IMG/VR virus record: IMGVR_UViG_3300037454_000906
Span: 96,001-160,000 of that record
Origin: a virus
Reading direction: 5' to 3' (one strand)
Length of the DNA stretch: 64,000 bases
Both the position numbers and the translations under genes were made by a program. Under the pieces are notes generated by a model that was not told the origin of the DNA, made no database searches, and saw only the letters and a program-made list of their open reading frames with translations. Positions 5,858 to 62,386 of the stretch are shown here, piece after piece (position 1 is the stretch's first letter; each line of letters opens with the position of its first letter).

Positions 5858-6619
5858 TTATTTTCCGTTTAACGTGTCACAAATCTGGTTCACGAGTGAA
5901 TCCAGCAGTTCCGGATCATCGTTGCGCAGTACAACCGGCATGATGACATTGGAATGGGAAGAATCGATGACTTCCTGGCAGTTTCTGTCAAGGTTTTCTT
6001 GCAGTGCCAAGGTCCTTCGGATCATCATTCCGTAATCGTCGAGTAGTTCCGCGTTGCGGCTGATTTCATCCGTTGTGGAACTATCATTCGCGTCACCTGT
6101 CCGTTCTACCCGGATGCCGAGGCGTTTACGGTATCTCTCCACGACACGGCTTACCTGTTCGTTTGGATCGCTTACCGTTATCCTGAATTGATGGATGCAC
6201 TCGGATGGGACGATATCCAGAATGGTCTTGATAATCCAGTTGAACCGATGCGGCGCCTCGATGAACACGGTACCCTCCAGACTGTACGTGGGATCGGGGG
6301 ACTGCGGTTCAAGCGCATAGGTGATAGCTTCCTTCAATGCGCAGATCAATGCATTTCGACTAATCCGGTCAAGCCATATGTAAGTGTCCATACTTTCCAT
6401 GGCTTCGTCGCGGATACCAGTGCTTAGGGAACCATCCGGCCCGATGACGCTCTGGTTGTACTTACCGAACAATACGGCGCGTACAGCGGGATTCACACGG
6501 AATACATCCTTGCGGAGCTGATCAGTATCAATTACCACATATCCACGCCTGCGGAGCATGTCTGAAATTGTACTCTTGCCGGTACCGATATGGCCCGTGA
6601 TTAATACTATGTTCTTCAT
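5858..6619 (-). CDS. coaE: dephospho-CoA kinase-like
   Basis: ITGHIGTGKSTISDML...G..VIDTD; adjacent to coaD. Confidence 0.8.
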   Translation of the reverse strand: MKNIVLITGHIGTGKSTISDMLRRRGYVVIDTDQLRKDVFRVNPAVRAVLFGKYNQSVIGPDGSLSTGIRDEAMESMDTYIWLDRISRNALICALKEAITYALEPQSPDPTYSLEGTVFIEAPHRFNWIIKTILDIVPSECIHQFRITVSDPNEQVSRVVERYRKRLGIRVERTGDANDSSTTDEISRNAELLDDYGMMIRRTLALQENLDRNCQEVIDSSHSNVIMPVVLRNDDPELLDSLVNQICDTLNGK

Positions 6620-12841: not shown

Positions 12842-12889
12842 GGGTCTTTATTCCTTGTGTTAGATTTACATCTCCCCAACGCCAATGAG

Positions 12890-13060
12890 GTGAACTACCC
12901 ACAGCCTAAAGGCTGTGAGCTTCGAGTTTTCGCTTCGACGGAGCCACTTGTGCTAACTCAGTATAACTGGGAGACATAGAGGCAGCTACCTCAGCGGAGG
13001 CGTGTTCCACGCACTCAGCACGTTTAGTCGTGCCAAACAAGAGTACATTACAGGCGGAAT
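12890..13060 (-). ncRNA. predicted omegaRNA scaffold of element 1 (guide 12889-12870)
   Basis: Overlaps the tnpB 3' end and right-end hairpin as in IS605 elements; 5' limit approximate. Confidence 0.55.
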
Positions 13061-14192
13061 GCCAATCCCTCGGCTTGGTATAACCGCAATCACAGTGATA
13101 TGTGCGCTCATCCAAGCTAATGGTATTTACTGCACCGCAAGCTGGACACATCTTGGTCGTCGGTAGCCACTTTGACAACACGAATGCGCGGTCTGCCTTG
13201 ACCAGCATCTTGATACGCTGTTTAAGGTCTCCCATGCAAGAGTGTTGCACTTGCTTACCGAACCAGGTCTGGTGCCAGTTCTTGATCTGCTCGTCCTGTA
13301 TGTATATGACATCGTAGCTGGACACAAGGTCGTGGTAGATTTTGTTGCAGATGTCCTTGCGGACATTCGCAACATGTTCATGCTCACGGGCAAGCTGCTT
13401 CCTACAATTCCATCGCCGCTTGGAGTCCTTCTGCTTCTTGTGCCTATTGAGCATCTTGCTCAGGTACTTCAGGTACTCGGTTTCTTGCACTTTGCAATCG
13501 TAGGTCTTGTTGTCCGATGTCGTTATCGTATTCTTGATGCCGAAGTCCAGGCCGACACTCTTGCGGGTGCGGTTTCTCGGTTCCTTCGGCAACATAATGG
13601 TGAGTTTTACATAGTAACCTGATGCCTTGCGAATGAGCTTGGCATCGGCTATCTCGTATTCCTCAAACTCTATCTGATGCAAGCCGTTCACTTTCAATTT
13701 CCTGAAACCAGGAATGGTGATATGGCTTGCATCCAAAATCTTCGTGAAACCCGTAATGATGGGAATGCAGTTCACTTCGCTTTTGAACTTCAACGCGCCA
13801 ACCTTGATACCTTTCTTCTTGGCCTTGGTGAGGTTGACAATGTCGGTCTTCTTCTGGGCTACAGTAGCCCTGTGGAGAACGGACGGCAGTGTAATGGATG
13901 AAGTGACCGGGTTCTTGTCCTTGTCGTAGTGGACTACATCCCTATGCTCGGTGTACTTGTAATCGAACATGCTGTTGTCGGGATTATCCTTGGACAACGA
14001 CAACATGTCGTTGATTACCCACTTAGCTTCCTTGAAACAGTTGGATAATTTCTCAAACACCGATTTGGGATTGTGCCGTATGGACACCTTAAGCTCGAAG
14101 ACACGGCATGTCTGCGTCTTACGACGGGCATGCGTTTCCGCCATGCTCGCCTTAATCCTCGCCTTCGTATCTTCGCTTCTTATCAGTTCCAT
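12906..14192 (-). CDS. tnpB: TnpB RNA-guided endonuclease with atypical RuvC-II
   Basis: GLDFGIK, YIQDEQ, CPACG/CDCG zinc finger, RDWHSACN. Confidence 0.9.
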   Translation of the reverse strand: MELIRSEDTKARIKASMAETHARRKTQTCRVFELKVSIRHNPKSVFEKLSNCFKEAKWVINDMLSLSKDNPDNSMFDYKYTEHRDVVHYDKDKNPVTSSITLPSVLHRATVAQKKTDIVNLTKAKKKGIKVGALKFKSEVNCIPIITGFTKILDASHITIPGFRKLKVNGLHQIEFEEYEIADAKLIRKASGYYVKLTIMLPKEPRNRTRKSVGLDFGIKNTITTSDNKTYDCKVQETEYLKYLSKMLNRHKKQKDSKRRWNCRKQLAREHEHVANVRKDICNKIYHDLVSSYDVIYIQDEQIKNWHQTWFGKQVQHSCMGDLKQRIKMLVKADRAFVLSKWLPTTKMCPACGAVNTISLDERTYHCDCGYTKPRDWHSACNVLLFGTTKRAECVEHASAEVAASMSPSYTELAQVAPSKRKLEAHSL

Positions 14193-14300
14193 AACAAGAT
14201 TCTTGACTATACTTATAGTTTAGAAGTTTTACTCAATAAATATATCTATTTTAGTGCCCATAAAATGTTATTTATTTCTTACATTTGCTATCGGCGGGTC

Positions 14301-14663
14301 TTACCCACGCCCTAAAGGGCGTGAGCTTGCGACCGCCCATTCCTCCTTAAACCTCAGCTTGCTAACTCGCTTCGCATATTGCGAATTCTTGGCGGTGGCT
14401 CGGTCGGGCACTGTCGACAGCCGAACCATTCGCCGCACCCGGAACGCATTAAACGGGCCGGCCTTCACCGCAACGCACGGGGGTTCCTCTTCACCCGGTA
14501 ATCGGAAAAACACCCAGACCTCTCCGTTACCAGAAAAATAGCGAAGCACCTCACGATTATGGGCTATTAGCGAAACGACGCCACCCCTGTCTCGAGAAAA
14601 GGTGGCGAAAATATCTTCGGCAGCCTTGGTCGCGATATCAATTACTTTACCGGCGGTAAGCAT
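14301..14663 (-). CDS. hypothetical protein whose 3' end reads into the IS left end
   Basis: Last ~10 codons are encoded by the element hairpin. Confidence 0.6.
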   Translation of the reverse strand: MLTAGKVIDIATKAAEDIFATFSRDRGGVVSLIAHNREVLRYFSGNGEVWVFFRLPGEEEPPCVAVKAGPFNAFRVRRMVRLSTVPDRATAKNSQYAKRVSKLRFKEEWAVASSRPLGRG

Positions 14664-14695: not shown

Positions 14696-14872
14696 TTATC
14701 TCCTGTATGTTTCCTTGTATATCAAATCCAGCAGGGTCCAGAAGGAAGCGGTATTGAAGATGACGAATATGACGAGGCCGATTATTTGGAGGATGGAGAG
14801 GTCTACGGTATGTAGGAGGTAGATACCTAATACGACTGCAAGCATATTGATTAGGCAGATGTAGTCTTTCAT
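14696..14872 (-). CDS. 58-aa membrane protein
   Basis: Hand translation MKDYICLINMLAVVLGIYLL...; two TM helices. Confidence 0.6.
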   Translation of the reverse strand: MKDYICLINMLAVVLGIYLLHTVDLSILQIIGLVIFVIFNTASFWTLLDLIYKETYRR

Positions 14873-14958
14873 GTTGGTACTCTGTGGTTAGAATGTGTCG
14901 TGCTTCTTGTTTTTATTCCTCGTTATGGAAGCCCCGTTAAACCGTAAGTGCATCATTT

Positions 14959-15042
14959 CTCCTCTGGCGCGGGGAGTATGGTATCATTTTGTTGGCATCA
15001 ACAAAATGATCTTTCATTCCTCCTCTGGCGCGGGGAGTATGG
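14959..15042. repeat. 23-bp direct repeat with a 61-bp period
   Basis: CTCCTCTGGCGCGGGGAGTATGG at 14959-14981 and 15020-15042. Confidence 0.85.
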
Positions 15043-15325
15043 GCATCCAATACTCTACTCCATAATCATAAAAACTAAAACCCATACGTCCTTTATGGTT
15101 TATATGCGTCCATTTATCGGCATTTCTGAATCCGCTAGAACCGCAAATTATGTAATAGCCTTCTTCGCTAGGTTTTTCCTCGCTAAACTTTCTCCAGCGG
15201 GTAGCCTCTCGCAACGAGGCGAGTTCTTTTTCCATGCTATCCACCCGTTCCATAGCTTGCAACAGAAACTCCCGCAGAATAGACGGCTTGTTGCAGTTTT
15301 CAACAAATTCTTTTGTGAGCTCCAT
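15014..15325 (-). CDS. DUF551-like phage protein
   Basis: WRKFSEEKP...YWMPILPAP. Confidence 0.65.
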   Translation of the reverse strand: MELTKEFVENCNKPSILREFLLQAMERVDSMEKELASLREATRWRKFSEEKPSEEGYYIICGSSGFRNADKWTHINHKGRMGFSFYDYGVEYWMPILPAPEEE

Positions 15326-15399
15326 ACTCAATCCTCCAAAAGATTATTTTCTATATGTTTTTATTCCTCGTTATGGAAGCACCGTTAAACCGATAGCTC

Positions 15400-15609
15400 T
15401 TACTGCTTCACAAATCGAAACTTGAAATGCTTGCCTTTATGCCGCTTCAACGGCTTGACGCAAGGTAGTGAATTTATCATCTTCTCGTGCCAGTCGGCGA
15501 ACGCTTGCCACTGTTCAGGCGTCTTCGGCTTGTACTCCTCAGCCTTGGCATGTAGCTTCTCCGACTGTTCGTCAAGGCATTTCAACCATTGTTCGTCGGG
15601 TGTTGTCAT
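15400..15609 (-). CDS. hypothetical cassette protein
   Basis: ORF between repeats 2 and 3. Confidence 0.65.
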   Translation of the reverse strand: MTTPDEQWLKCLDEQSEKLHAKAEEYKPKTPEQWQAFADWHEKMINSLPCVKPLKRHKGKHFKFRFVKQ

Positions 15610-15648
15610 ACTAAGTTTTTATTCCTCGTTATAGAATCCTCGTTAAAC

Positions 15649-15862
15649 CTAACCAAGAATTTCTTGGACGGCTAATCTTCCGCTATCGCCGTCTCCGAGG
15701 ACTTCGGCGATCTTTGACCAGCCTCACAGTGAAGCCGCTGCCGGGTCCTGGATCGGCAATGTCCTGCAGCATCTGGTACCGCAACGCGTCAAGCGCTTTC
15801 TCGTCCGTATTGCCATGGGCGTCTATCTCTACGATACGTGTATATTTTGCTCGGTATTTCAT
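15649..15862 (-). pseudogene. hypothetical cassette protein with probable 1-nt frameshift near 15714
   Basis: MKYRAKYTRIVEID...VRLVK continues as IAEVLGDGDSGRLAVQEILG* to a TAG at the repeat if one A is removed. Confidence 0.5.
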
Positions 15863-15923
15863 GTACCCTGTTCCCTTATTAGTTTTTATTCCTCGTTATG
15901 TAAGCCCATTAAACCCTGCCAAT

Positions 15924-16271
15924 CTAGGCTATATTATGTTCTTTTCGGTATTTGGGTGTACCGGGGTCACCGTCCTTGACTACCTCGGCGGTCAGCAGTT
16001 CATCCAGCGGACATGATGTCTGAATACCGTTGATGAACTTTATCCCATAATGTCCACTATACGGAAAATAATGTACTTCGGCAATGATACTTACCGAATG
16101 TTTCTGGTGGCAGTGGTCGGTAAACCAATGGTCATTATGTATGAGCGCATACCGGTCAACCGGTACCGGAATCATATCGGGCAATTCTTCGCATGGCATA
16201 CGATTATACTCACCTCGCCTACTTGGGTTTTTATCATCTCGTTGTGGAAGCCCCGTTAAAACCTTAATCAT
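15924..16271 (-). CDS. hypothetical cassette protein (true start probably near 16170-16200)
   Basis: ORF between repeats 4 and 5. Confidence 0.5.
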   Translation of the reverse strand: MIKVLTGLPQRDDKNPSRRGEYNRMPCEELPDMIPVPVDRYALIHNDHWFTDHCHQKHSVSIIAEVHYFPYSGHYGIKFINGIQTSCPLDELLTAEVVKDGDPGTPKYRKEHNIA

Positions 16272-16491
16272 TTTTCTCCACCTTTATTACCTCAAATTCA
16301 TCACAGTAACTGTCATATATTTCATTAGACCACTTATATGCTTCGCTTTCAGTAAATCGTTGGGCTTGTTCTATATCTTCGGTAATGTTATACCCACTAA
16401 ATCCATCTTTGTCTGTGTCAATATGTAAAACATATACGGGGACTTCTCTATCTTCCCATTCTTTGCAAACCAATACAAATCCATTTTGCAT
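16264..16491 (-). CDS. hypothetical cassette protein
   Basis: ATG immediately follows repeat 6; stop abuts repeat 5. Confidence 0.7.
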   Translation of the reverse strand: MQNGFVLVCKEWEDREVPVYVLHIDTDKDGFSGYNITEDIEQAQRFTESEAYKWSNEIYDSYCDEFEVIKVEKND

Positions 16492-16519
16492 GTTTTTATT
16501 CCTCGTTATGGAAGCCCCG

Positions 16520-16906
16520 TTAAGCCATAGGAGATTCAATCTTGCGCAATTCGGTTAAATAATCAACAGACTGCTCGCCCAATTCATCTAGGAATACCTC
16601 TTTGTCCGGTAAATCCAATTCATCAAAAGTTCCATCTATTTTTCTAGCACAACTGTTTTCGACTTTCCACTTTTCATTAGATTCCTGAAAAATACAAAAC
16701 ATCGTGATACGGTTTTCTAGCAAATCAATTAAAGATCTTATTGTTGTTGCGGCAAGAACATACTCTTTCAAATCAACATCACAGCAATACGCAATGTAAT
16801 ACTTGCCACCATGATTTTTACATACGAACAAAAGAGGTCCATCATAATAGACAAGAACCTTATCCGTTTTCAAATCGTTCAGATTAAAAGTTTCGTTATC
16901 ACTCAT
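16520..16906 (-). CDS. DUF6575-like protein, AT-rich
   Basis: VLVYYDGPLLF...Y.A; stop codon lies inside repeat 6. Confidence 0.6.
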   Translation of the reverse strand: MSDNETFNLNDLKTDKVLVYYDGPLLFVCKNHGGKYYIAYCCDVDLKEYVLAATTIRSLIDLLENRITMFCIFQESNEKWKVENSCARKIDGTFDELDLPDKEVFLDELGEQSVDYLTELRKIESPMA

Positions 16907-16957
16907 TATCTTTCCGGTAACACTTTGGGTGGACATAACCTTATTATAAACACGTGG

Positions 16958-17608
16958 CTATATATAGAACGTTGATTCACCGGACTCGAATTCACGCTTG
17001 ATGAGGCCGGTGACTTTCAATCCGTCGGGACTCTTGTCGAACCACGCCTCTATCATATCCAGGTTCTTGAATACGAATCCGTTGCTGTTGATGAGATCAT
17101 ATGCACTTTTGTTCAGTGCACATTTGCACAGTGCAACCCTGGCGTCAATGGATTCCTTGAACCACCACCACATCGCCCTGATGAACATGCCGTGCCCGAT
17201 GACCACGGCGTTTTCCTCGCGCATCGGAGTGGAAATTGACGAAATGGCTTCATCGATCCTGCCGAGCATGGTGTCCTTGCCCAGCGGGACCAGGGATGCA
17301 AATTTGTCCTCGGAAATTTCCCAAAACTTGACGTTCCCGAGGCCGGAGCAGTCGAATTCACGGAATTCATCGAGAGGCACCGTTTCCATCCAGGGGAACA
17401 ATGCATTCGCGGTCTCCCTGCATCGCAACGCGGGGGAGACGTGTATCTTGGACGGGAACCCGCAGATATGGATTCCGACGCTAAGCCGCCACCTTTCAAT
17501 GTCGGCTTTGGATAGCGGAAGTATACTGGACCCGTCGTAGTTCCGCAATATGCTGCCGCTGAGGTTCGCCTTCGTAGGGGCGTGCCTGATCAAGTAAAGC
17601 CTGTACAT
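16958..17608 (-). CDS. histidine phosphatase (phosphoglycerate mutase-like)
   Basis: LIRHA, SPALRCRETA, FREFD.G, GHG. Confidence 0.85.
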   Translation of the reverse strand: MYRLYLIRHAPTKANLSGSILRNYDGSSILPLSKADIERWRLSVGIHICGFPSKIHVSPALRCRETANALFPWMETVPLDEFREFDCSGLGNVKFWEISEDKFASLVPLGKDTMLGRIDEAISSISTPMREENAVVIGHGMFIRAMWWWFKESIDARVALCKCALNKSAYDLINSNGFVFKNLDMIEAWFDKSPDGLKVTGLIKREFESGESTFYI

Positions 17609-17615
17609 ATGAAGA

Positions 17616-17644
17616 AATATAGTAAACTGGCCCCGCCCCGGCAA
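17616..17644 (-). promoter_or_regulatory. early promoter, leaderless
   Basis: TTGCCG-N17-TATATT-N7-ATG. Confidence 0.7.
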
Positions 17645-26055: not shown

Positions 26056-26117
26056 AATGTAGCAAAAGATGCGACAAGTGGCAACCGGTTGCCGAAATGT
26101 GCCGTTATTGCTACATT
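26056..26117. promoter_or_regulatory. divergent promoter pair with palindromic -35 region
   Basis: Minus TTGCCA-N17-TACATT-N6-ATG; plus TTGCCG-N17-TACATT; GGCAACCGGTTGCC palindrome. Confidence 0.8.
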
Positions 26118-26142
26118 TTGGAAAAACAGGAGAAAAAACGAC

Positions 26143-29678: not shown

Positions 29679-29688
29679 CGCTCGATGG

Positions 29689-29717
29689 TTGCCACCCAGC
29701 AATCAATTTGCTATATA
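29689..29717 (+). promoter_or_regulatory. early promoter upstream of a non-coding tRNA-like region
   Basis: TTGCCA-N17-TATATA. Confidence 0.75.
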
Positions 29718-29812
29718 TTAAACGTGAAGGCACGCCGGCCAGGAAGGCAAACCCGCCGCACCGCCATGCTCAGTGCACAGAGAGGCACCAGGTTCGCGAA
29801 CTGGAAAAGTGT

Positions 29813-31118: not shown

Positions 31119-31150
31119 TGGTTGCCGAAAGGCAACCATTTTGCTATATA
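31119..31150 (+). promoter_or_regulatory. terminator hairpin overlapping a promoter
   Basis: TGGTTGCC-GAAA-GGCAACCA then TTTT; TTGCCG-N17-TATATA. Confidence 0.75.
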
Positions 31151-31189
31151 TTGGATATGATTGGAGAGACAATCTAGGAGAATCCCGTC

Positions 31190-32395: not shown

Positions 32396-32418
32396 GGCAA
32401 TTCACCCAATTCAACCAA

Positions 32419-33792
32419 GTCAACTACCCACGCCCTAAAGGGCGTGAGCTTGTACGGCTCCCGTTGTTACCGCAGGGAGGCTTATGTACGATTGGGCGGT
32501 TGACATACACCCTGCCTTCCAAGTTCTCAATGCACCATCAAGGGGCGTCTTGAACGAGGAAGGATGTTTGCTCTTCCGAGCTATATTGATTGCGGCATTC
32601 CAGTCGGCATCCAGGACAGTACCGTTCTTGCAATAGAATCTACGATTCTTGCGAGTACCTTCCTTCTTGCCGGTGGTGCAATCTGTTTGGCTTGTCATGA
32701 ACGGAGAAACCGTTTCCACTGTCTTACCGTACAGCGGTGCCTTGTATGACAAAATTTGCTTGAACTTGTAGAATGGAATTTGGTACATCCTACGATTATG
32801 GGATTTCCGTTTGAATCCCTCTTTAGACTTTGAAGTCTTCTGCTTAATTCCGCTTAAATCTTCCATTACGATAATGGAAGCCGCTGTGCTTTGAATTACC
32901 GCATTGGCAATCTTTCTGCACATATCGGTAGACTGGTTATGTTCCTTGATGGATAGCTTACGAAAATGCCTATGAGCTGACTTGGTTCCTTTCTTCTGCA
33001 AGCATCGTTTCAAGTAACGTAGTTTGCGTTTACGCTTGTTATATTCCTTGTCATGGAACATGATGCCATCGGAGGAAATTGCGAAACGGCGTTCGCCCAT
33101 ATCCAATCCGATGCAGTTGTCATCATATAGAGGTACATCGGGAACATTGAATGTTATCGAAAGGAAGAAACGCCCATTTCGCATGAAAATCAACGGGTCG
33201 GCGGTGGTATATTGCACAAACAGCGACTCCAGCCTGTCATAGCCGACCATATCCGCTACGGCTCTTTTGCAAGCCTTGCCGGAGCACAATGCAATGCTCT
33301 TGCGATTGAACTTGGAATACAGCCGCTTGTCCAGCCTCATTGATAGACCATGCTTTTCTGGTATTTTGTGCTTCTTATGACCGTTGCTCTTGATGGAACG
33401 AAATGCCGATATACATTCCTTGTATATTTTGATTACGGCTTGGCTTGGAATTGTTGGATATTCTTCTCGGAGAATATCATACACGGCTTTATGGACTGAA
33501 CGCAAGTCTATATGGACATTGTTGGAATCTAATATGTTAGCACACTTGTTATAGGCTTCCCTGGACAATGCAAGAATACTAGACCAGTATTCGTGGTCTT
33601 CCTTGGTACGGAACCGTATCTCTGCATTGTAGGTCAGTTCTACCATATAACTTTCACCCGTGTTCACCTATAAGTTTAGATAATTTCGGTTTGCAAAGCA
33701 AGTATTTTAGGCACAATATTGGAATAAATTGTTCCCAAAGTGTTCTCGTGGGCATTCCTATGCCGCCCTAAAGGGACGGCATCTTCCTACCC
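32419..33792 (-). mobile_element. tnpA-less IS200/IS605-family element 2
   Basis: Right end GTAGTTGAC with hairpin 32429-32446; left-end hairpin ATGCCGCCCTAAAGGGACGGCAT 33760-33782. Confidence 0.85.
32435..33646 (-). CDS. tnpB: TnpB RNA-guided endonuclease
   Basis: GLDMG, VMEDL, DADWNAAIN (D-E-D intact); reduced zinc finger. Confidence 0.9.
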   Translation of the reverse strand: MVELTYNAEIRFRTKEDHEYWSSILALSREAYNKCANILDSNNVHIDLRSVHKAVYDILREEYPTIPSQAVIKIYKECISAFRSIKSNGHKKHKIPEKHGLSMRLDKRLYSKFNRKSIALCSGKACKRAVADMVGYDRLESLFVQYTTADPLIFMRNGRFFLSITFNVPDVPLYDDNCIGLDMGERRFAISSDGIMFHDKEYNKRKRKLRYLKRCLQKKGTKSAHRHFRKLSIKEHNQSTDMCRKIANAVIQSTAASIIVMEDLSGIKQKTSKSKEGFKRKSHNRRMYQIPFYKFKQILSYKAPLYGKTVETVSPFMTSQTDCTTGKKEGTRKNRRFYCKNGTVLDADWNAAINIARKSKHPSSFKTPLDGALRTWKAGCMSTAQSYISLPAVTTGAVQAHAL

Positions 33793-35362: not shown

Positions 35363-35399
35363 CGGATTTTAACCTCTTGGTTAGGGAGCACCGTTAAAC

Positions 35400-35570
35400 C
35401 TATAAACTTCCAACTTCTTTTAGCCTATCATACTCTGCTAAGGCATTTGCAAAAGCTCCATGTTCTCGTTCTTGATTAATTCTTTTCATTTCCTTAGCAA
35501 TATCTTCAACAGAAGGTCCATTGTAATTCGGCGTTTTGGAAAGAAAATCGAATATCGATCTCTTCTTCAT
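35400..35570 (-). CDS. small hypothetical protein
   Basis: MKKRSIFDF...; stop at the repeat. Confidence 0.6.
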   Translation of the reverse strand: MKKRSIFDFLSKTPNYNGPSVEDIAKEMKRINQEREHGAFANALAEYDRLKEVGSL

Positions 35571-35764: not shown

Positions 35765-35816
35765 GGGTGTTTCCTTTATTTGATTTTAACTTCTTGGTTA
35801 GGGAGCGCCGTTAAAC

Positions 35817-36410
35817 CTAGATACTCTTCGATATATAGCAGAACGAGTTTACGAAGTTCCTGATGCGGTTGACCGCATCGGCGTCGTTGGCGAAATAGCA
35901 ATGAAGATTGGCCACCTTCTTAACTTCCCGGCTGGTCCTGTCGACACGCTGATACTTTTCAAATGTTACGCACCATACACGCGGGGCATCGAGGTCATAT
36001 CCGGTGGCGGACTGGTGTATGCTCACCTGTTCGAACGGGAACATCTCAAATTGTTCGACGCCCTCGACCCTAACAGAGCCCTGCCGGGAAATGTGTACGT
36101 CGGTGTTAGAATCGCCATAACTCGATACACGGTACGAAAAATCGGATCCATCGGCAGTGCGCCGGTCGTTGTCAATTCTGTCGATATGGTCAAAGAACTG
36201 TTCCACGTTTACCGTGACAAGCTGTTTGGTAAGACCTTCATCGCCTTCAGACGAGTTCTTGATGAAGTCCGCCTGCTTCATGAACATCTGTATCGCGGCA
36301 TGCTTGACCTGATTAAGCTCGGTTTCTGAAAGCGGGCTCGGGTAGATTTTCATCTTCCCGTCGTCAATCTCCACATCATATGAGTGGTCGTTTTCCAGGG
36401 TTACTTTCAT
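35817..36410 (-). CDS. hypothetical protein
   Basis: ORF; stop at the repeat. Confidence 0.7.
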   Translation of the reverse strand: MKVTLENDHSYDVEIDDGKMKIYPSPLSETELNQVKHAAIQMFMKQADFIKNSSEGDEGLTKQLVTVNVEQFFDHIDRIDNDRRTADGSDFSYRVSSYGDSNTDVHISRQGSVRVEGVEQFEMFPFEQVSIHQSATGYDLDAPRVWCVTFEKYQRVDRTSREVKKVANLHCYFANDADAVNRIRNFVNSFCYISKSI

Positions 36411-61738: not shown

Positions 61739-62386
61739 TTATCCTCGAGTAATGGGTTCAACGCCCGTCACATCCCGCCCATACATTTCTAAAGCGAGCC
61801 GTGCCGCCCAGTATGCGGTATGCCACTCCATACAGGTATTGCATGGCTTAGGGCCGCACTTTTCATGGGTATCGTTGCGGATACCATCACACTTGAAACA
61901 CCTGCATCTTTCATTTGCCGCTTGTTGAGCATACTTGTCGCGTGTCTTTTCGTCGATCATCCCCACTGCCGGTTCTGATGGAATGTTGACGGCTTTCCAA
62001 TACTTGATTTCAGCCCCGTTGCAGCAATGGAAATTTCCTACTGGGAGATCGTAGCAGAGAGCATCGCCTTCTTTGTTTTCAGTCCATGTGAGGGACTTGG
62101 CTGGGTGCATCTTGGCGACGATGACTGCAGGTCTGAGTTTTTCGGGGTCCATCCTGTCTTCTAGCAGGGCGAAGATTTCCTCGTTGAGTGGGATTTTCGT
62201 GTTGGATGCATCGTTCCAGTCGTTGAATTTCTTCATTGTGTTTAATGCATCCTTGCCCCTTTCGGCAAGAACCGCAGCGACTTCGGACAGGAACTTGTCC
62301 ATCTCTTCTTTCTCGTATCCGGCAACAAACCCATCACTGTTGTTGTGTCGGAATTGCAGTGCGGCAGGTTTCTTCAGTTCGCTCAT
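61739..62386 (-). CDS. hypothetical protein with Cys-rich C-terminus
   Basis: ATGA-coupled start MSELKK. Confidence 0.65.
   Translation of the reverse strand: MSELKKPAALQFRHNNSDGFVAGYEKEEMDKFLSEVAAVLAERGKDALNTMKKFNDWNDASNTKIPLNEEIFALLEDRMDPEKLRPAVIVAKMHPAKSLTWTENKEGDALCYDLPVGNFHCCNGAEIKYWKAVNIPSEPAVGMIDEKTRDKYAQQAANERCRCFKCDGIRNDTHEKCGPKPCNTCMEWHTAYWAARLALEMYGRDVTGVEPITRG

What the first reader, a model, noticed from the sequence alone, without database searches (positions are those of the whole stretch)
14909..16526. Cassette-like array: small unrelated genes each delimited by a conserved ~35-bp repeat
Seen: six copies of GGTTTAACGGGGCTTCCATAACGAGGAATAAAAAC (minus strand) spaced 258-448 bp apart, each interval holding one short ORF. 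For five copies the upstream stop codon lies in, on or within 8 nt of the GTTTAAC end, and the other end supplies an SD (GAGG), immediately before the ATG in the best case. The GTTTAAC-N9-ATAAC part is conserved beyond what an RBS needs. Cassette genes are heterogeneous (DUF551-like, DUF6575-like, a membrane peptide), with local decay. Known: stop-adjacent RYYYAAC is an integron attC hallmark, but these repeats are too short and not palindromic. Inference: an undescribed gene-capture/shuffling array, either recombinase sites or homology-driven expression cassettes, or a repeated phage promoter/operator.
Basis: partly seen in the sequence, partly recalled or inferred. Interest (0 to 1): 0.8.

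Follow-up and report, generated by a model that had tools for sequence, protein, structure and literature searches.

The report
Portable gene-junction repeat in huge phages
A 35-base sequence repeated between small orphan genes of a 253-kb rumen phage is a conserved stop-to-start junction carrying a ribosome-binding site, and related huge phages swap unrelated genes at exactly this sequence, so it resembles the gene-shuffling cassettes of T4-like phages more than an integron.

Summary
Six minus-strand copies of a 35-nt motif lie at window 14909-16526, none expected by chance. Five diverged copies lie elsewhere in the 253-kb phage genome.

The motif is a family. About 68 copies occur in roughly 17 huge-phage contigs, with consensus GGTTTAACGGnGCTyCCAAAACGAGGAATTAAAAC (about 50 bits). 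Every copy points the same way as the next ORF.

It is not an attC site, a sigma-70 promoter, a hairpin or an Rfam RNA. No tyrosine recombinase was found in four phage genomes.

Arrays start with a hairpin/extended -10 promoter plus a leader, so the motif lies inside operons. The upstream stop often falls in or beside it, and its GAGGA sits 9-15 nt before the ATG in about a third of copies.

Between contigs, 97-100% identity starts and ends inside the motif. Two phages with a 99.97% identical 9.2-kb flank carry 13 and 8 wholly different cassettes. Fifty cassette proteins form 48 families, almost all orphans.

Best reading (0.55): a portable intercistronic expression junction whose conservation makes it the homology patch for cassette shuffling. 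It behaves like PeSLs in evolution and like start-associated sequences in anatomy. What reads its 5' half is unknown.

This scan has found similar junction modules on other phage DNA, and a different hairpin module in this same genome.

The parts
16492..16526 (-). Motif copy 6 (1 mismatch). The TAA of the upstream 127/138-aa gene lies inside it, and the ATG of the next gene follows it directly.
16227..16263 (-). Motif copy 5, degenerate (37 nt with small insertions, GAGG lost), read through by a 115-codon ORF.
   Evidence: PWM score 28
15882..15916 (-). Motif copy 4. The 5' half is shifted by 1 nt and the 3' half is exact. It heads the 59-aa cassette shared with relative G001.
15615..15649 (-). 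Motif copy 3 (3 mismatches).
15357..15391 (-). Motif copy 2 (1 mismatch). The downstream gene has its own GGAGGA SD 31 nt later.
14909..14943 (-). Motif copy 1 (exact), the last in the array.
16520..16936 (-). First gene of the operon (138-aa ORF; the start is probably the ATG at 16903). It has no motif in front and a weak DUF6575 hit.
16264..16491 (-). Cassette gene, 75 aa, orphan.
15924..16199 (-). Cassette gene, 91 aa from the ATG at 16199 (115 aa if read from 16271 through copy 5), orphan.
15683..15862 (-). Cassette gene, 59 aa. It is 86% nt identical to a cassette in G001, although the two genomes are only about 66-70% identical in structural genes.
15400..15609 (-). Cassette gene, 69 aa, orphan.
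15014..15325 (-). Cassette gene, 103 aa. It hits PHROG 924 (unknown function) and has no Pfam DUF551 hit.
14696..14872 (-). Last cassette gene, 58 aa, hydrophobic small protein.
16921..16950 (-). Head of the array: TATAAT-like box followed by GGTTATGTCCACCCAAAGTG. It is homologous to the heads of the L060 and L074 arrays and is the putative promoter and start of the operon.
35365..35400 (-). Diverged family member. It keeps GGTTTAACGGTGCTCCC and TTAAAA at the same spacing but has a different middle.
35782..35817 (-). Diverged family member, as the one above.

Best explanation
The repeat is a portable intercistronic junction module. It is a 35-nt unstructured sequence inside a polycistronic transcript. 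It takes the stop of the upstream gene (a TAA at positions 5-7, or a stop abutting it). It supplies a GAGGA ribosome-binding site and an A-rich spacer to whatever gene follows.

Because the module is nearly identical in many copies and in many related huge phages, it is the only homology between unrelated neighbouring genes. General homologous recombination therefore exchanges, inserts and deletes single-gene cassettes at exactly this point. That makes the array a hypervariable island of small orphan genes.

Shown here: the anatomy, the cross-phage conservation, the position within operons, the homology breakpoints in the motif, and the complete turnover of cassette content.

Inferred: use of GAGGA as the SD sequence, and recombination by homology rather than by a dedicated enzyme.

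Unknown: what reads the strongly conserved 5' half GGTTTAACsGnGCTyCC. Diverged copies keep this half, together with TTAAAA at fixed spacing, even where GAGG is lost. That points to an additional sequence-specific reader, which could be a phage or host protein acting on RNA or DNA.
For: (1) Family and conservation. About 68 copies were found in roughly 17 contigs. All 35 positions except 11 and 34 are highly informative. The best score in shuffled genomes was below 0, against 17-66 for real copies.

(2) Orientation and position. Every copy is co-directional with the next ORF. The gap to the ATG is 0-6 nt in 23 of 62 copies (37%); many of the longer gaps hold an SD of their own. The upstream stop is the motif's own TAA (offset +4) in 15 copies and abuts the motif (offsets -2 to -4) in 10 more.

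(3) The phage uses SDs of this type. Half of 256 ORFs have GGAG/GAGG/AGGA upstream, against 13% at random positions, and GAGGA is among the top words.

(4) No structure. Fold z-scores run from -1.1 to +1.4 and there is no Rfam match.

(5) Position in operons. Arrays are headed by a hairpin plus extended -10 promoter and a conserved leader of about 125 nt. There are no such promoter units between cassettes.

(6) Junction evidence.
- L069 and L072 are 99.5-100% identical through two cassettes but unrelated upstream, and the switch lies inside the motif.
- L063 and L070 share one cassette at 97% with unrelated flanks on both sides.
- ODAJ012184254.1 and ODAI014706426.1 share a 9.2-kb flank at 99.97%, yet their arrays of 13 and 8 cassettes share only the motif.
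- G000 and G001 share one cassette at 86% in different neighbourhoods.

(7) Cassette content. Fifty cassette proteins form 48 families, and almost none hit Pfam or PHROGs.

(8) Crossovers map to different parts of the motif. Left boundaries lie after position 21 or 34, and one right boundary lies before position 13.
Against: There are no expression data, so transcription start sites, RNA processing and translation are all untested.

A pure ribosome-site role does not explain the near-invariant 5' half. It also does not explain why diverged copies keep that half while losing GAGG.

In about 60% of copies the ATG lies 10-74 nt downstream, often with its own SD, so the motif's GAGGA is not always the working ribosome site.

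No RecA-family recombinase was detected in G000 or G001 by Pfam, so the recombination machinery is not identified.

Crossover mapping rests on three junctions only. The high copy-to-copy identity could partly reflect recent spread or gene conversion rather than selection on each base.
Confidence: 0.55

Rival explanations
1. The motif is a phage-specific promoter of a middle or late class, read by a phage sigma-like factor or a modified host polymerase. Each cassette would then carry its own promoter, as early genes of T4-type phages do.
For: All four phages examined encode a Sigma70_r2-like protein (256 aa in G000). In G001 it lies just upstream of a second cluster of motif-like copies. Diverged copies keep three blocks at fixed spacing (GGTTTAAC, GCTTCC and TTAAAA at positions 29-34), which looks promoter-like. 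PeSLs set a precedent for per-gene promoters that double as recombination patches (PMC2839356).
Against: None of the sigma-70-like matches in the array coincides with the motif. TTTAAC and TAAAAC are 21 nt apart. In 14 of 62 copies the ATG lies within 3 nt of the motif end (7 at exactly 0), so a start site 6-8 nt after a TAAAAC '-10' would fall inside the ORF. The gap to the ATG varies from 0 to 6 nt, which is unlike this phage's fixed leaderless design. Arrays have their own hairpin/extended -10 promoter and leader. The whole 35 nt is conserved, not two short boxes.
Confidence: 0.2
2. The motif is a binding site (operator) for a phage regulator that switches the whole set of cassettes together. 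The regulator could act on DNA, like the stoperators of Cluster A mycobacteriophages, or on mRNA as a translational repressor or a nuclease target.
For: The sequence is long, asymmetric, orientation-locked, placed between stop and start, and conserved beyond what a ribosome site needs. Head copies carry a palindromic extension, GGAAGyAs-GGTTTAACG-GnGCTTCC, that could bind a dimer or form a hairpin. Diverged copies retain the 5' half.
Against: No candidate regulator was identified. The phages have no integrase, so there is no sign of a temperate, repressor-based lifestyle. The palindromic extension is imperfect and is not compensated in G001 or L069. This reading is compatible with the best explanation rather than exclusive of it.
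Confidence: 0.12
3. The motif is the site of a dedicated site-specific recombination system, an integron-like gene-capture device with an unrecognised recombinase.
For: Cassettes are single genes bounded by the repeat and expressed from a common upstream promoter. Their content turns over completely between near-identical phages. The 5' end matches RYYYAAC, the inverse core of attC.
Against: No tyrosine recombinase was found in G000, G001, G003 or G004, while the same search hit all 14 control genomes. The serine recombinase is the TnpA of an IS607 element about 36 kb from the array within the window, and G001 has none. The motif has no palindrome or single-strand fold. The three mapped junctions need crossover points on both sides of the motif's middle, which does not fit one fixed cut. 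G001 is only 78% complete, so absence there is not proof.
Confidence: 0.06
4. The motif is a functionless by-product: an intergenic segment copied along by recent tandem duplication of one gene unit.
For: Copies within one genome share private variants. G000 has T19 and A30; G001 has CTCCCAAAG. This shows local copying or gene conversion.
Against: The genes between copies are unrelated: 48 families among 50 proteins. The motif is conserved in phages whose core genes are only about 66-70% identical. It is present in about 17 contigs.
Confidence: 0.03

Closest known systems
PeSL (promoter-early stem-loop) regulatory cassettes of T4-type phages (Arbiol et al. 2010, PMC2839356; Comeau et al. 2014, PMC4122927)
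   Same: Both are conserved short intergenic elements that flank small orphan genes in hyperplastic regions of large myophages. In both, homology between related phages breaks at the elements. Recombination between copies, with no known dedicated recombinase, accounts for insertion, deletion and replacement of single genes.
   Different: This motif has no sigma-70 promoter and no stem-loop terminator. It sits inside operons that are headed by a separate hairpin/promoter unit. It carries the ribosome-binding site and takes the upstream stop. The sequence is unrelated. Mini-circles were not tested.
Start-associated sequences (SAS/ESAS) of Cluster K mycobacteriophages (Pope et al. 2011, PMC3203893)
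   Same: Both are asymmetric, orientation-locked repeats that contain an SD core plus conserved non-SD positions. Both lie a few nt before start codons of non-structural genes, sometimes overlap the upstream stop, are conserved across subclusters in front of unrelated genes, and have no known reader. A subset has an inverted-repeat extension upstream, comparable to the head copies here.
   Different: SAS is 13 bp (GGGATAGGAGCCC) and lies 3-7 bp from the start. This motif is 35 nt, has a different sequence, is 0-6 nt from the ATG in only about 37% of copies, occurs in tandem arrays, and shows direct evidence of cassette exchange.
Integron attC sites and cassette arrays
   Same: Both are arrays of promoterless single-gene cassettes behind one promoter with highly variable content, and both have an RYYYAAC-like word at the cassette border.
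   Different: There is no IntI or any tyrosine recombinase, no imperfect palindrome or folded bottom strand, no GTTRRRY partner, and no single crossover point.
Stoperators of Cluster A mycobacteriophages (as contrasted with SAS in PMC3203893; other details from my own knowledge of L5 gp71)
   Same: Both are asymmetric sites in short intergenic regions near stop codons, all in one orientation relative to transcription, with many copies per genome.
   Different: Stoperators are 13 bp, bind a known repressor and belong to temperate phages. Here no repressor or integrase is seen, and the motif includes the ribosome site.

Membership tests
Integron (attC cassette array) | An IntI-type tyrosine recombinase encoded with the array | tested here: not met
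   PF00589 gave no match in G000, G001, G003 or G004, while all 14 control genomes matched.
Integron (attC cassette array) | attC is an imperfect palindrome (RYYYAAC ... GTTRRRY) that folds as a single strand | tested here: not met
   Only the RYYYAAC-like word is present. Folding of 8 copies gave z-scores from -1.1 to +1.4 and no shared hairpin.
Integron (attC cassette array) | Cassette content varies between close relatives while the flanks are conserved | tested here: met
   The ODAJ and ODAI contigs share a 99.97% identical 9.2-kb flank, but their 13 and 8 cassettes share only the motif.
PeSL cassettes of T4-type phages | A strong sigma-70-like early promoter inside the repeat | tested here: not met
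   No promoter-like match coincides with a motif copy. The candidate hexamers are 21 nt apart. In 14 of 62 copies the ATG lies within 3 nt of the motif end.
PeSL cassettes of T4-type phages | An adjacent stem-loop that acts as a terminator | tested here: not met
   No significant fold. The terminator-like hairpins belong to the separate promoter units at array heads.
PeSL cassettes of T4-type phages | Flanks orphan genes, with homology breakpoints between related phages at the repeat | tested here: met
   for the breakpoints; for orphan content.
PeSL cassettes of T4-type phages | Recombination between copies yields mini-circles | not testable with these tools
   This needs inverse PCR or read-level data from infected cultures.
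Start-associated sequences (Cluster K) | An asymmetric repeat with an SD core a few nt upstream of start codons, in one orientation | tested here: inconclusive
   All 68 copies are co-directional with the next ORF, and GAGGA lies 9-15 nt before the ATG in 23 of 62 copies. The rest lie 10-74 nt away, often with their own SD.
Start-associated sequences (Cluster K) | Restricted to non-structural genes | tested here: met
   G000 copies lie at 25.9, 77.7, 110.9-112.5, 131.4-131.8 and 168.1 kb. The large virion genes lie at 187-240 kb.
Start-associated sequences (Cluster K) | The 13-bp consensus GGGATAGGAGCCC | tested here: not met
   The consensus here is a different 35-mer.
CRISPR array | Repeats of 28-37 nt separated by non-coding spacers of similar length | tested here: not met
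   The intervals are 223-413 nt and each holds an ORF. The phage's real CRISPR repeat is unrelated, and none of its 7 spacers matches the motif.

The most novel reading that the evidence does not exclude
The invariant 5' half (GGTTTAACsGnGCTyCC, with TTAAAA at fixed spacing) is the docking site of a dedicated, still unrecognised phage factor that both controls expression of all cassettes and promotes their capture. This would be an integron-like gene-acquisition system in huge phages that works without a tyrosine recombinase.
Probability: 0.08. Interest if true: 0.85.

Novelty: new variant of a known kind. Interest (0 to 1): 0.55.

Why it matters
Huge phages carry long stretches of small orphan genes, many of them probably host-takeover or anti-defence functions, and how these sets turn over so quickly is poorly understood.

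This motif gives a concrete, searchable marker of the exchange points in one lineage of rumen huge phages. Two phages that are 99.97% identical next door carry completely different gene sets between the same 35-nt junctions.

It also extends the PeSL idea, in which conserved regulatory linkers act as recombination patches, to a linker that is neither a promoter nor a hairpin but a stop-to-start translation junction.

In practical terms, the motif can be used to pull accessory-gene cassettes out of metagenomes. It could also be tested as a natural context-insulating junction for expressing arbitrary genes in operons.

Tried and rejected
- **RNA structure.** Eight copies folded no better than shuffles, and there was no Rfam match in three arrays.
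- **Covariation C15:G21 / U15:A21.** Exceptions exist and the neighbouring pairs do not form, so this was dropped.
- **Sigma-70 promoter.** No match coincides with the motif.
- **T7-type RNA polymerase.** PF00940 found nothing, but the controls could not ring, so this is uninformative. Pfam on the largest proteins showed no polymerase.
- **Site-specific recombinase.** None was found apart from the IS607 TnpA.
- **Guide RNA of the adjacent TnpB, or of the other TnpB tails, targeting the motif.** The sequences after the conserved tail hairpin do not match the motif.
- **The phage's own CRISPR spacers targeting the motif.** None of 7 spacers matches.
- **Antisense partner elsewhere in G000 or G001.** Only chance-level half-site matches were found on the other strand.
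- **Pairing with 16S rRNA.** A 9-nt complement to E. coli 16S 497-505 is matched by 10% of shuffles and is absent in a Bacilli 16S.
- **Likeness to the rrn boxA antiterminator.** No better than shuffles.
- **Close relatives through single proteins.** The 250-aa phosphatase found none. The 59-aa cassette protein found only G001.
- **Host from TnpB.** A copy 93% identical lies in a sheep-reticulum 'Bacteroidaceae' MAG, but that genome has no motif, and the contig may be host or binned phage. The host stays open.
- **RecA-family recombinase.** Absent by Pfam in G000 and G001.
Full report
**What is there.** The window is bases 96001-160000 of a 253-kb IMG/VR virus record that is about 99% complete. 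It has T4-like baseplate and tail-sheath-stabiliser genes, and earlier notes of this scan call it a rumen jumbo phage.

Six minus-strand copies of GGTTTAACGGGGCTTCCATAACGAGGAATAAAAAC lie between window 14909 and 16526. Four have 0-3 mismatches, with none expected in shuffles. Two are degenerate. Start-to-start spacing is 258-448 nt, and each interval holds one short minus-strand ORF.

A position weight matrix finds five further, more diverged minus-strand copies in the genome. They lie at 25.9, 77.7, 131.4, 131.8 and 168.1 kb. They score 17-49, while the best score in shuffled genomes is below 0.

**It is a family shared by huge phages.** A pattern scan of IMG/VR found a 222-kb relative, G001, with 13 copies in two arrays. 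It also found single copies in a 419-kb and a 279-kb phage.

A metagenome scan found 16 more stretches. These include ODAJ012184254.1 with 13 copies, ODAI014706426.1 with 8 and JAEEGL011936831.1 with 5.

From 45 distinct copies the consensus is GGTTTAACGGnGCTyCCAAAACGAGGAATTAAAAC. Nearly every position carries 1.2-1.7 bits; only positions 11 and 34 are loose.

G000 and G001 align over only about 17 kb. Their structural genes are about 66-70% identical. The motif, at about 30 of 35, is therefore far better conserved than the genomes around it.

**Anatomy.**
- All 68 copies point the same way as the next ORF.
- In 23 of 62 copies the ATG follows within 0-6 nt, which puts GAGGA 9-15 nt upstream of it.
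- In the other copies the ATG is 10-74 nt away, often behind a stronger SD of its own.
- The upstream stop is the motif's own TAA (positions 5-7) in 15 copies. It abuts the motif (offsets -2 to -4) in 10 more.
- The phage uses SDs of this type. Half of 256 ORFs have one, against 13% at random positions, and GAGGA is among the top words.
- The motif does not fold (z-scores from -1.1 to +1.4) and matches no Rfam family.
- Diverged copies keep GGTTTAACsGnGCTyCC, with TTAAAA exactly at positions 29-34, while the GAGG region changes. The 5' half therefore has a sequence-specific role that a ribosome site does not explain.

**Position in transcription units.** In G001, ODAI, ODAJ, L070 and L072 each array begins with three things. 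First comes a GC hairpin plus T-run plus extended -10 box, for example CCACCGGT..ACCGGTGG-ATATTTTTGCTATATTTG. Next comes a conserved, foldable leader of about 125 nt that holds a 10-codon mini-ORF. The first motif copy follows.

No such promoter units lie between cassettes. The G000 array begins with a different head, a TATAAT-like box and GGTTATGTCCACCCAAAGTG at window 16921-16950. This head is homologous to those of the L060 and L074 arrays. It is followed by one gene without a motif and then the six motif-led genes.

None of the sigma-70-like matches in the G000 array coincides with the motif. The motif is thus an element inside operons, not their promoter.

**Cassette exchange.**
- L069 and L072 are 99.5-100% identical through two cassettes but unrelated in the cassette before. 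The two motif copies at the switch differ at positions 2, 11, 15 and 21 and are identical from position 22 onward.
- L063 and L070 share one 343-nt cassette at 97%, with unrelated DNA on both sides. On the left the motifs differ up to position 34. On the right they are identical to position 12 and differ from position 13.
- Many BLAST alignments between contigs end at motif position 33-36 or begin at position 0-1.
- ODAJ and ODAI share 9.2 kb at 99.97% next to the arrays, and 494 nt at 89% on the other side. Their 13 and 8 cassettes share only the motif and one 95-nt patch.
- G000 and G001 share the 59-aa cassette at 86% in different neighbourhoods.
- Fifty first-gene cassette proteins form 48 families. 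They give 2 weak Pfam hits and 2 PHROG hits in all.

**Mechanism.** No tyrosine recombinase is found in four phages, although the controls ring. The only serine recombinase is an IS607 TnpA elsewhere in the window, and G001 has none.

The three mapped boundaries need crossovers both after position 21-34 and before position 13. That does not fit a single cut site. The simplest reading is homologous recombination on the 35-nt patch, as proposed for PeSLs, where patches under 50 bp are said to suffice (PMC2839356).

I did not find a RecA-family gene in G000 or G001, so the enzymes involved remain unidentified.

For expression, the stop-in-motif, SD and A-rich spacer layout suggests a context-independent translation junction for whatever gene lands behind it. 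This step is inferred, not shown.

**Comparison with known systems.** In evolutionary role the motif matches PeSLs, but it fails two of their defining features, the promoter and the stem-loop. In anatomy it is closest to the start-associated sequences of Cluster K mycobacteriophages (PMC3203893). Those also have an SD core, conserved non-SD positions, a single orientation, placement before unrelated non-structural genes and an unknown reader. The motif here is longer, differs in sequence and occurs in arrays.

It fails the integron tests, since it has no IntI and no attC fold, and it fails the CRISPR test. I therefore class it as a new variant of a known kind.

This scan has reported similar junction modules in other phages. 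It has also reported a different hairpin-type module in front of about 70 genes elsewhere in this same genome. The general phenomenon looks widespread, and this sequence family is one more instance of it, with unusually clean comparative evidence.

**Limits.**
- Everything about transcription, processing and translation is inference from sequence.
- Crossover mapping rests on three junctions.
- The host is unknown. The phage's SD usage and extended -10 promoters argue against a typical Bacteroidota host, but a TnpB 93% identical sits in a 'Bacteroidaceae' MAG.
- Several contigs are related to each other, so the 68 copies are not 68 independent observations.

Noticed in passing
L069:989-1030; window 31120-31155, 29688-29728, 26087-26122 and others (families D2, D5, D8-D10): Transcription units in this phage group start with a GC hairpin, a T-run and an extended -10 box (TTTTGCTATATTT). 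Many have the ATG 6 nt after the -10, which implies leaderless mRNAs. This is probably the hairpin module that other follow-ups described for the 72-kb orphan-gene block.
   Followed up: partly
L041:2066-2192, L041:3830-3956, L069:1017-1143, L070:6862-6988(-), L072:3854-3980, L064:5225-5351(-): A conserved leader of about 125 nt lies between the head promoter and the first motif copy. Its consensus fold has 37 pairs (-29 kcal/mol, 3 compensatory pairs). It holds a 10-codon mini-ORF, MSEPRNNRQ(P/Q/H), that varies mostly by synonymous or conservative changes. It has no Rfam match and may be an attenuator or antiterminator leader.
   Followed up: partly
window 16921-16940 (-); L060, L074 heads; reversed in L071:~880-910, L067:~475-500, G001:~153940-153975, G000:~77650-77680: A second conserved element, GGCTATGTCCACCCAAAGTG, heads some arrays. 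It also occurs in the opposite orientation 10-40 nt after terminal, gene-less motif copies. Its function is unknown.
   Followed up: no
window 14950-15037: A 27-nt direct duplication of the 3' end of gene 15014-15325 flanks a perfect 12-bp hairpin (14983-15010). It looks like a small insertion with a target duplication, or a recombination scar, just before motif copy 1.
   Followed up: no
window 14289-14328 and 12883-12922, 32412-32451: Three copies of a TnpB omega-RNA-like tail hairpin (AAGCTCACGCCCTTTAGGGCGTGGGTA). The copy at 14289-14328 has no tnpB and lies inside ORF 14301-14663, which is probably a TnpB remnant that bounds the array. The intact tnpB at 12906-14192 is 93% identical at the protein level to one in a sheep-reticulum MAG (L083).
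   Followed up: partly
G001 62277-62305 (L041:2277-2305): A motif-like sequence, GGTTTACCGGTGCTTCCAAAAGCAGG, lies inside the coding region of the first cassette gene of G001. It may be a relic of an old junction absorbed into an ORF.
   Followed up: no
G003 5898-5923 and G004 17608-17633 (L051, L052, L065, L075): Two much larger phages (419 and 279 kb), which have RecA-like genes that G000 and G001 lack, carry one perfect 26-nt copy of the motif before a 108-aa gene. This suggests that a motif-plus-gene unit moved between phage lineages.
   Followed up: partly
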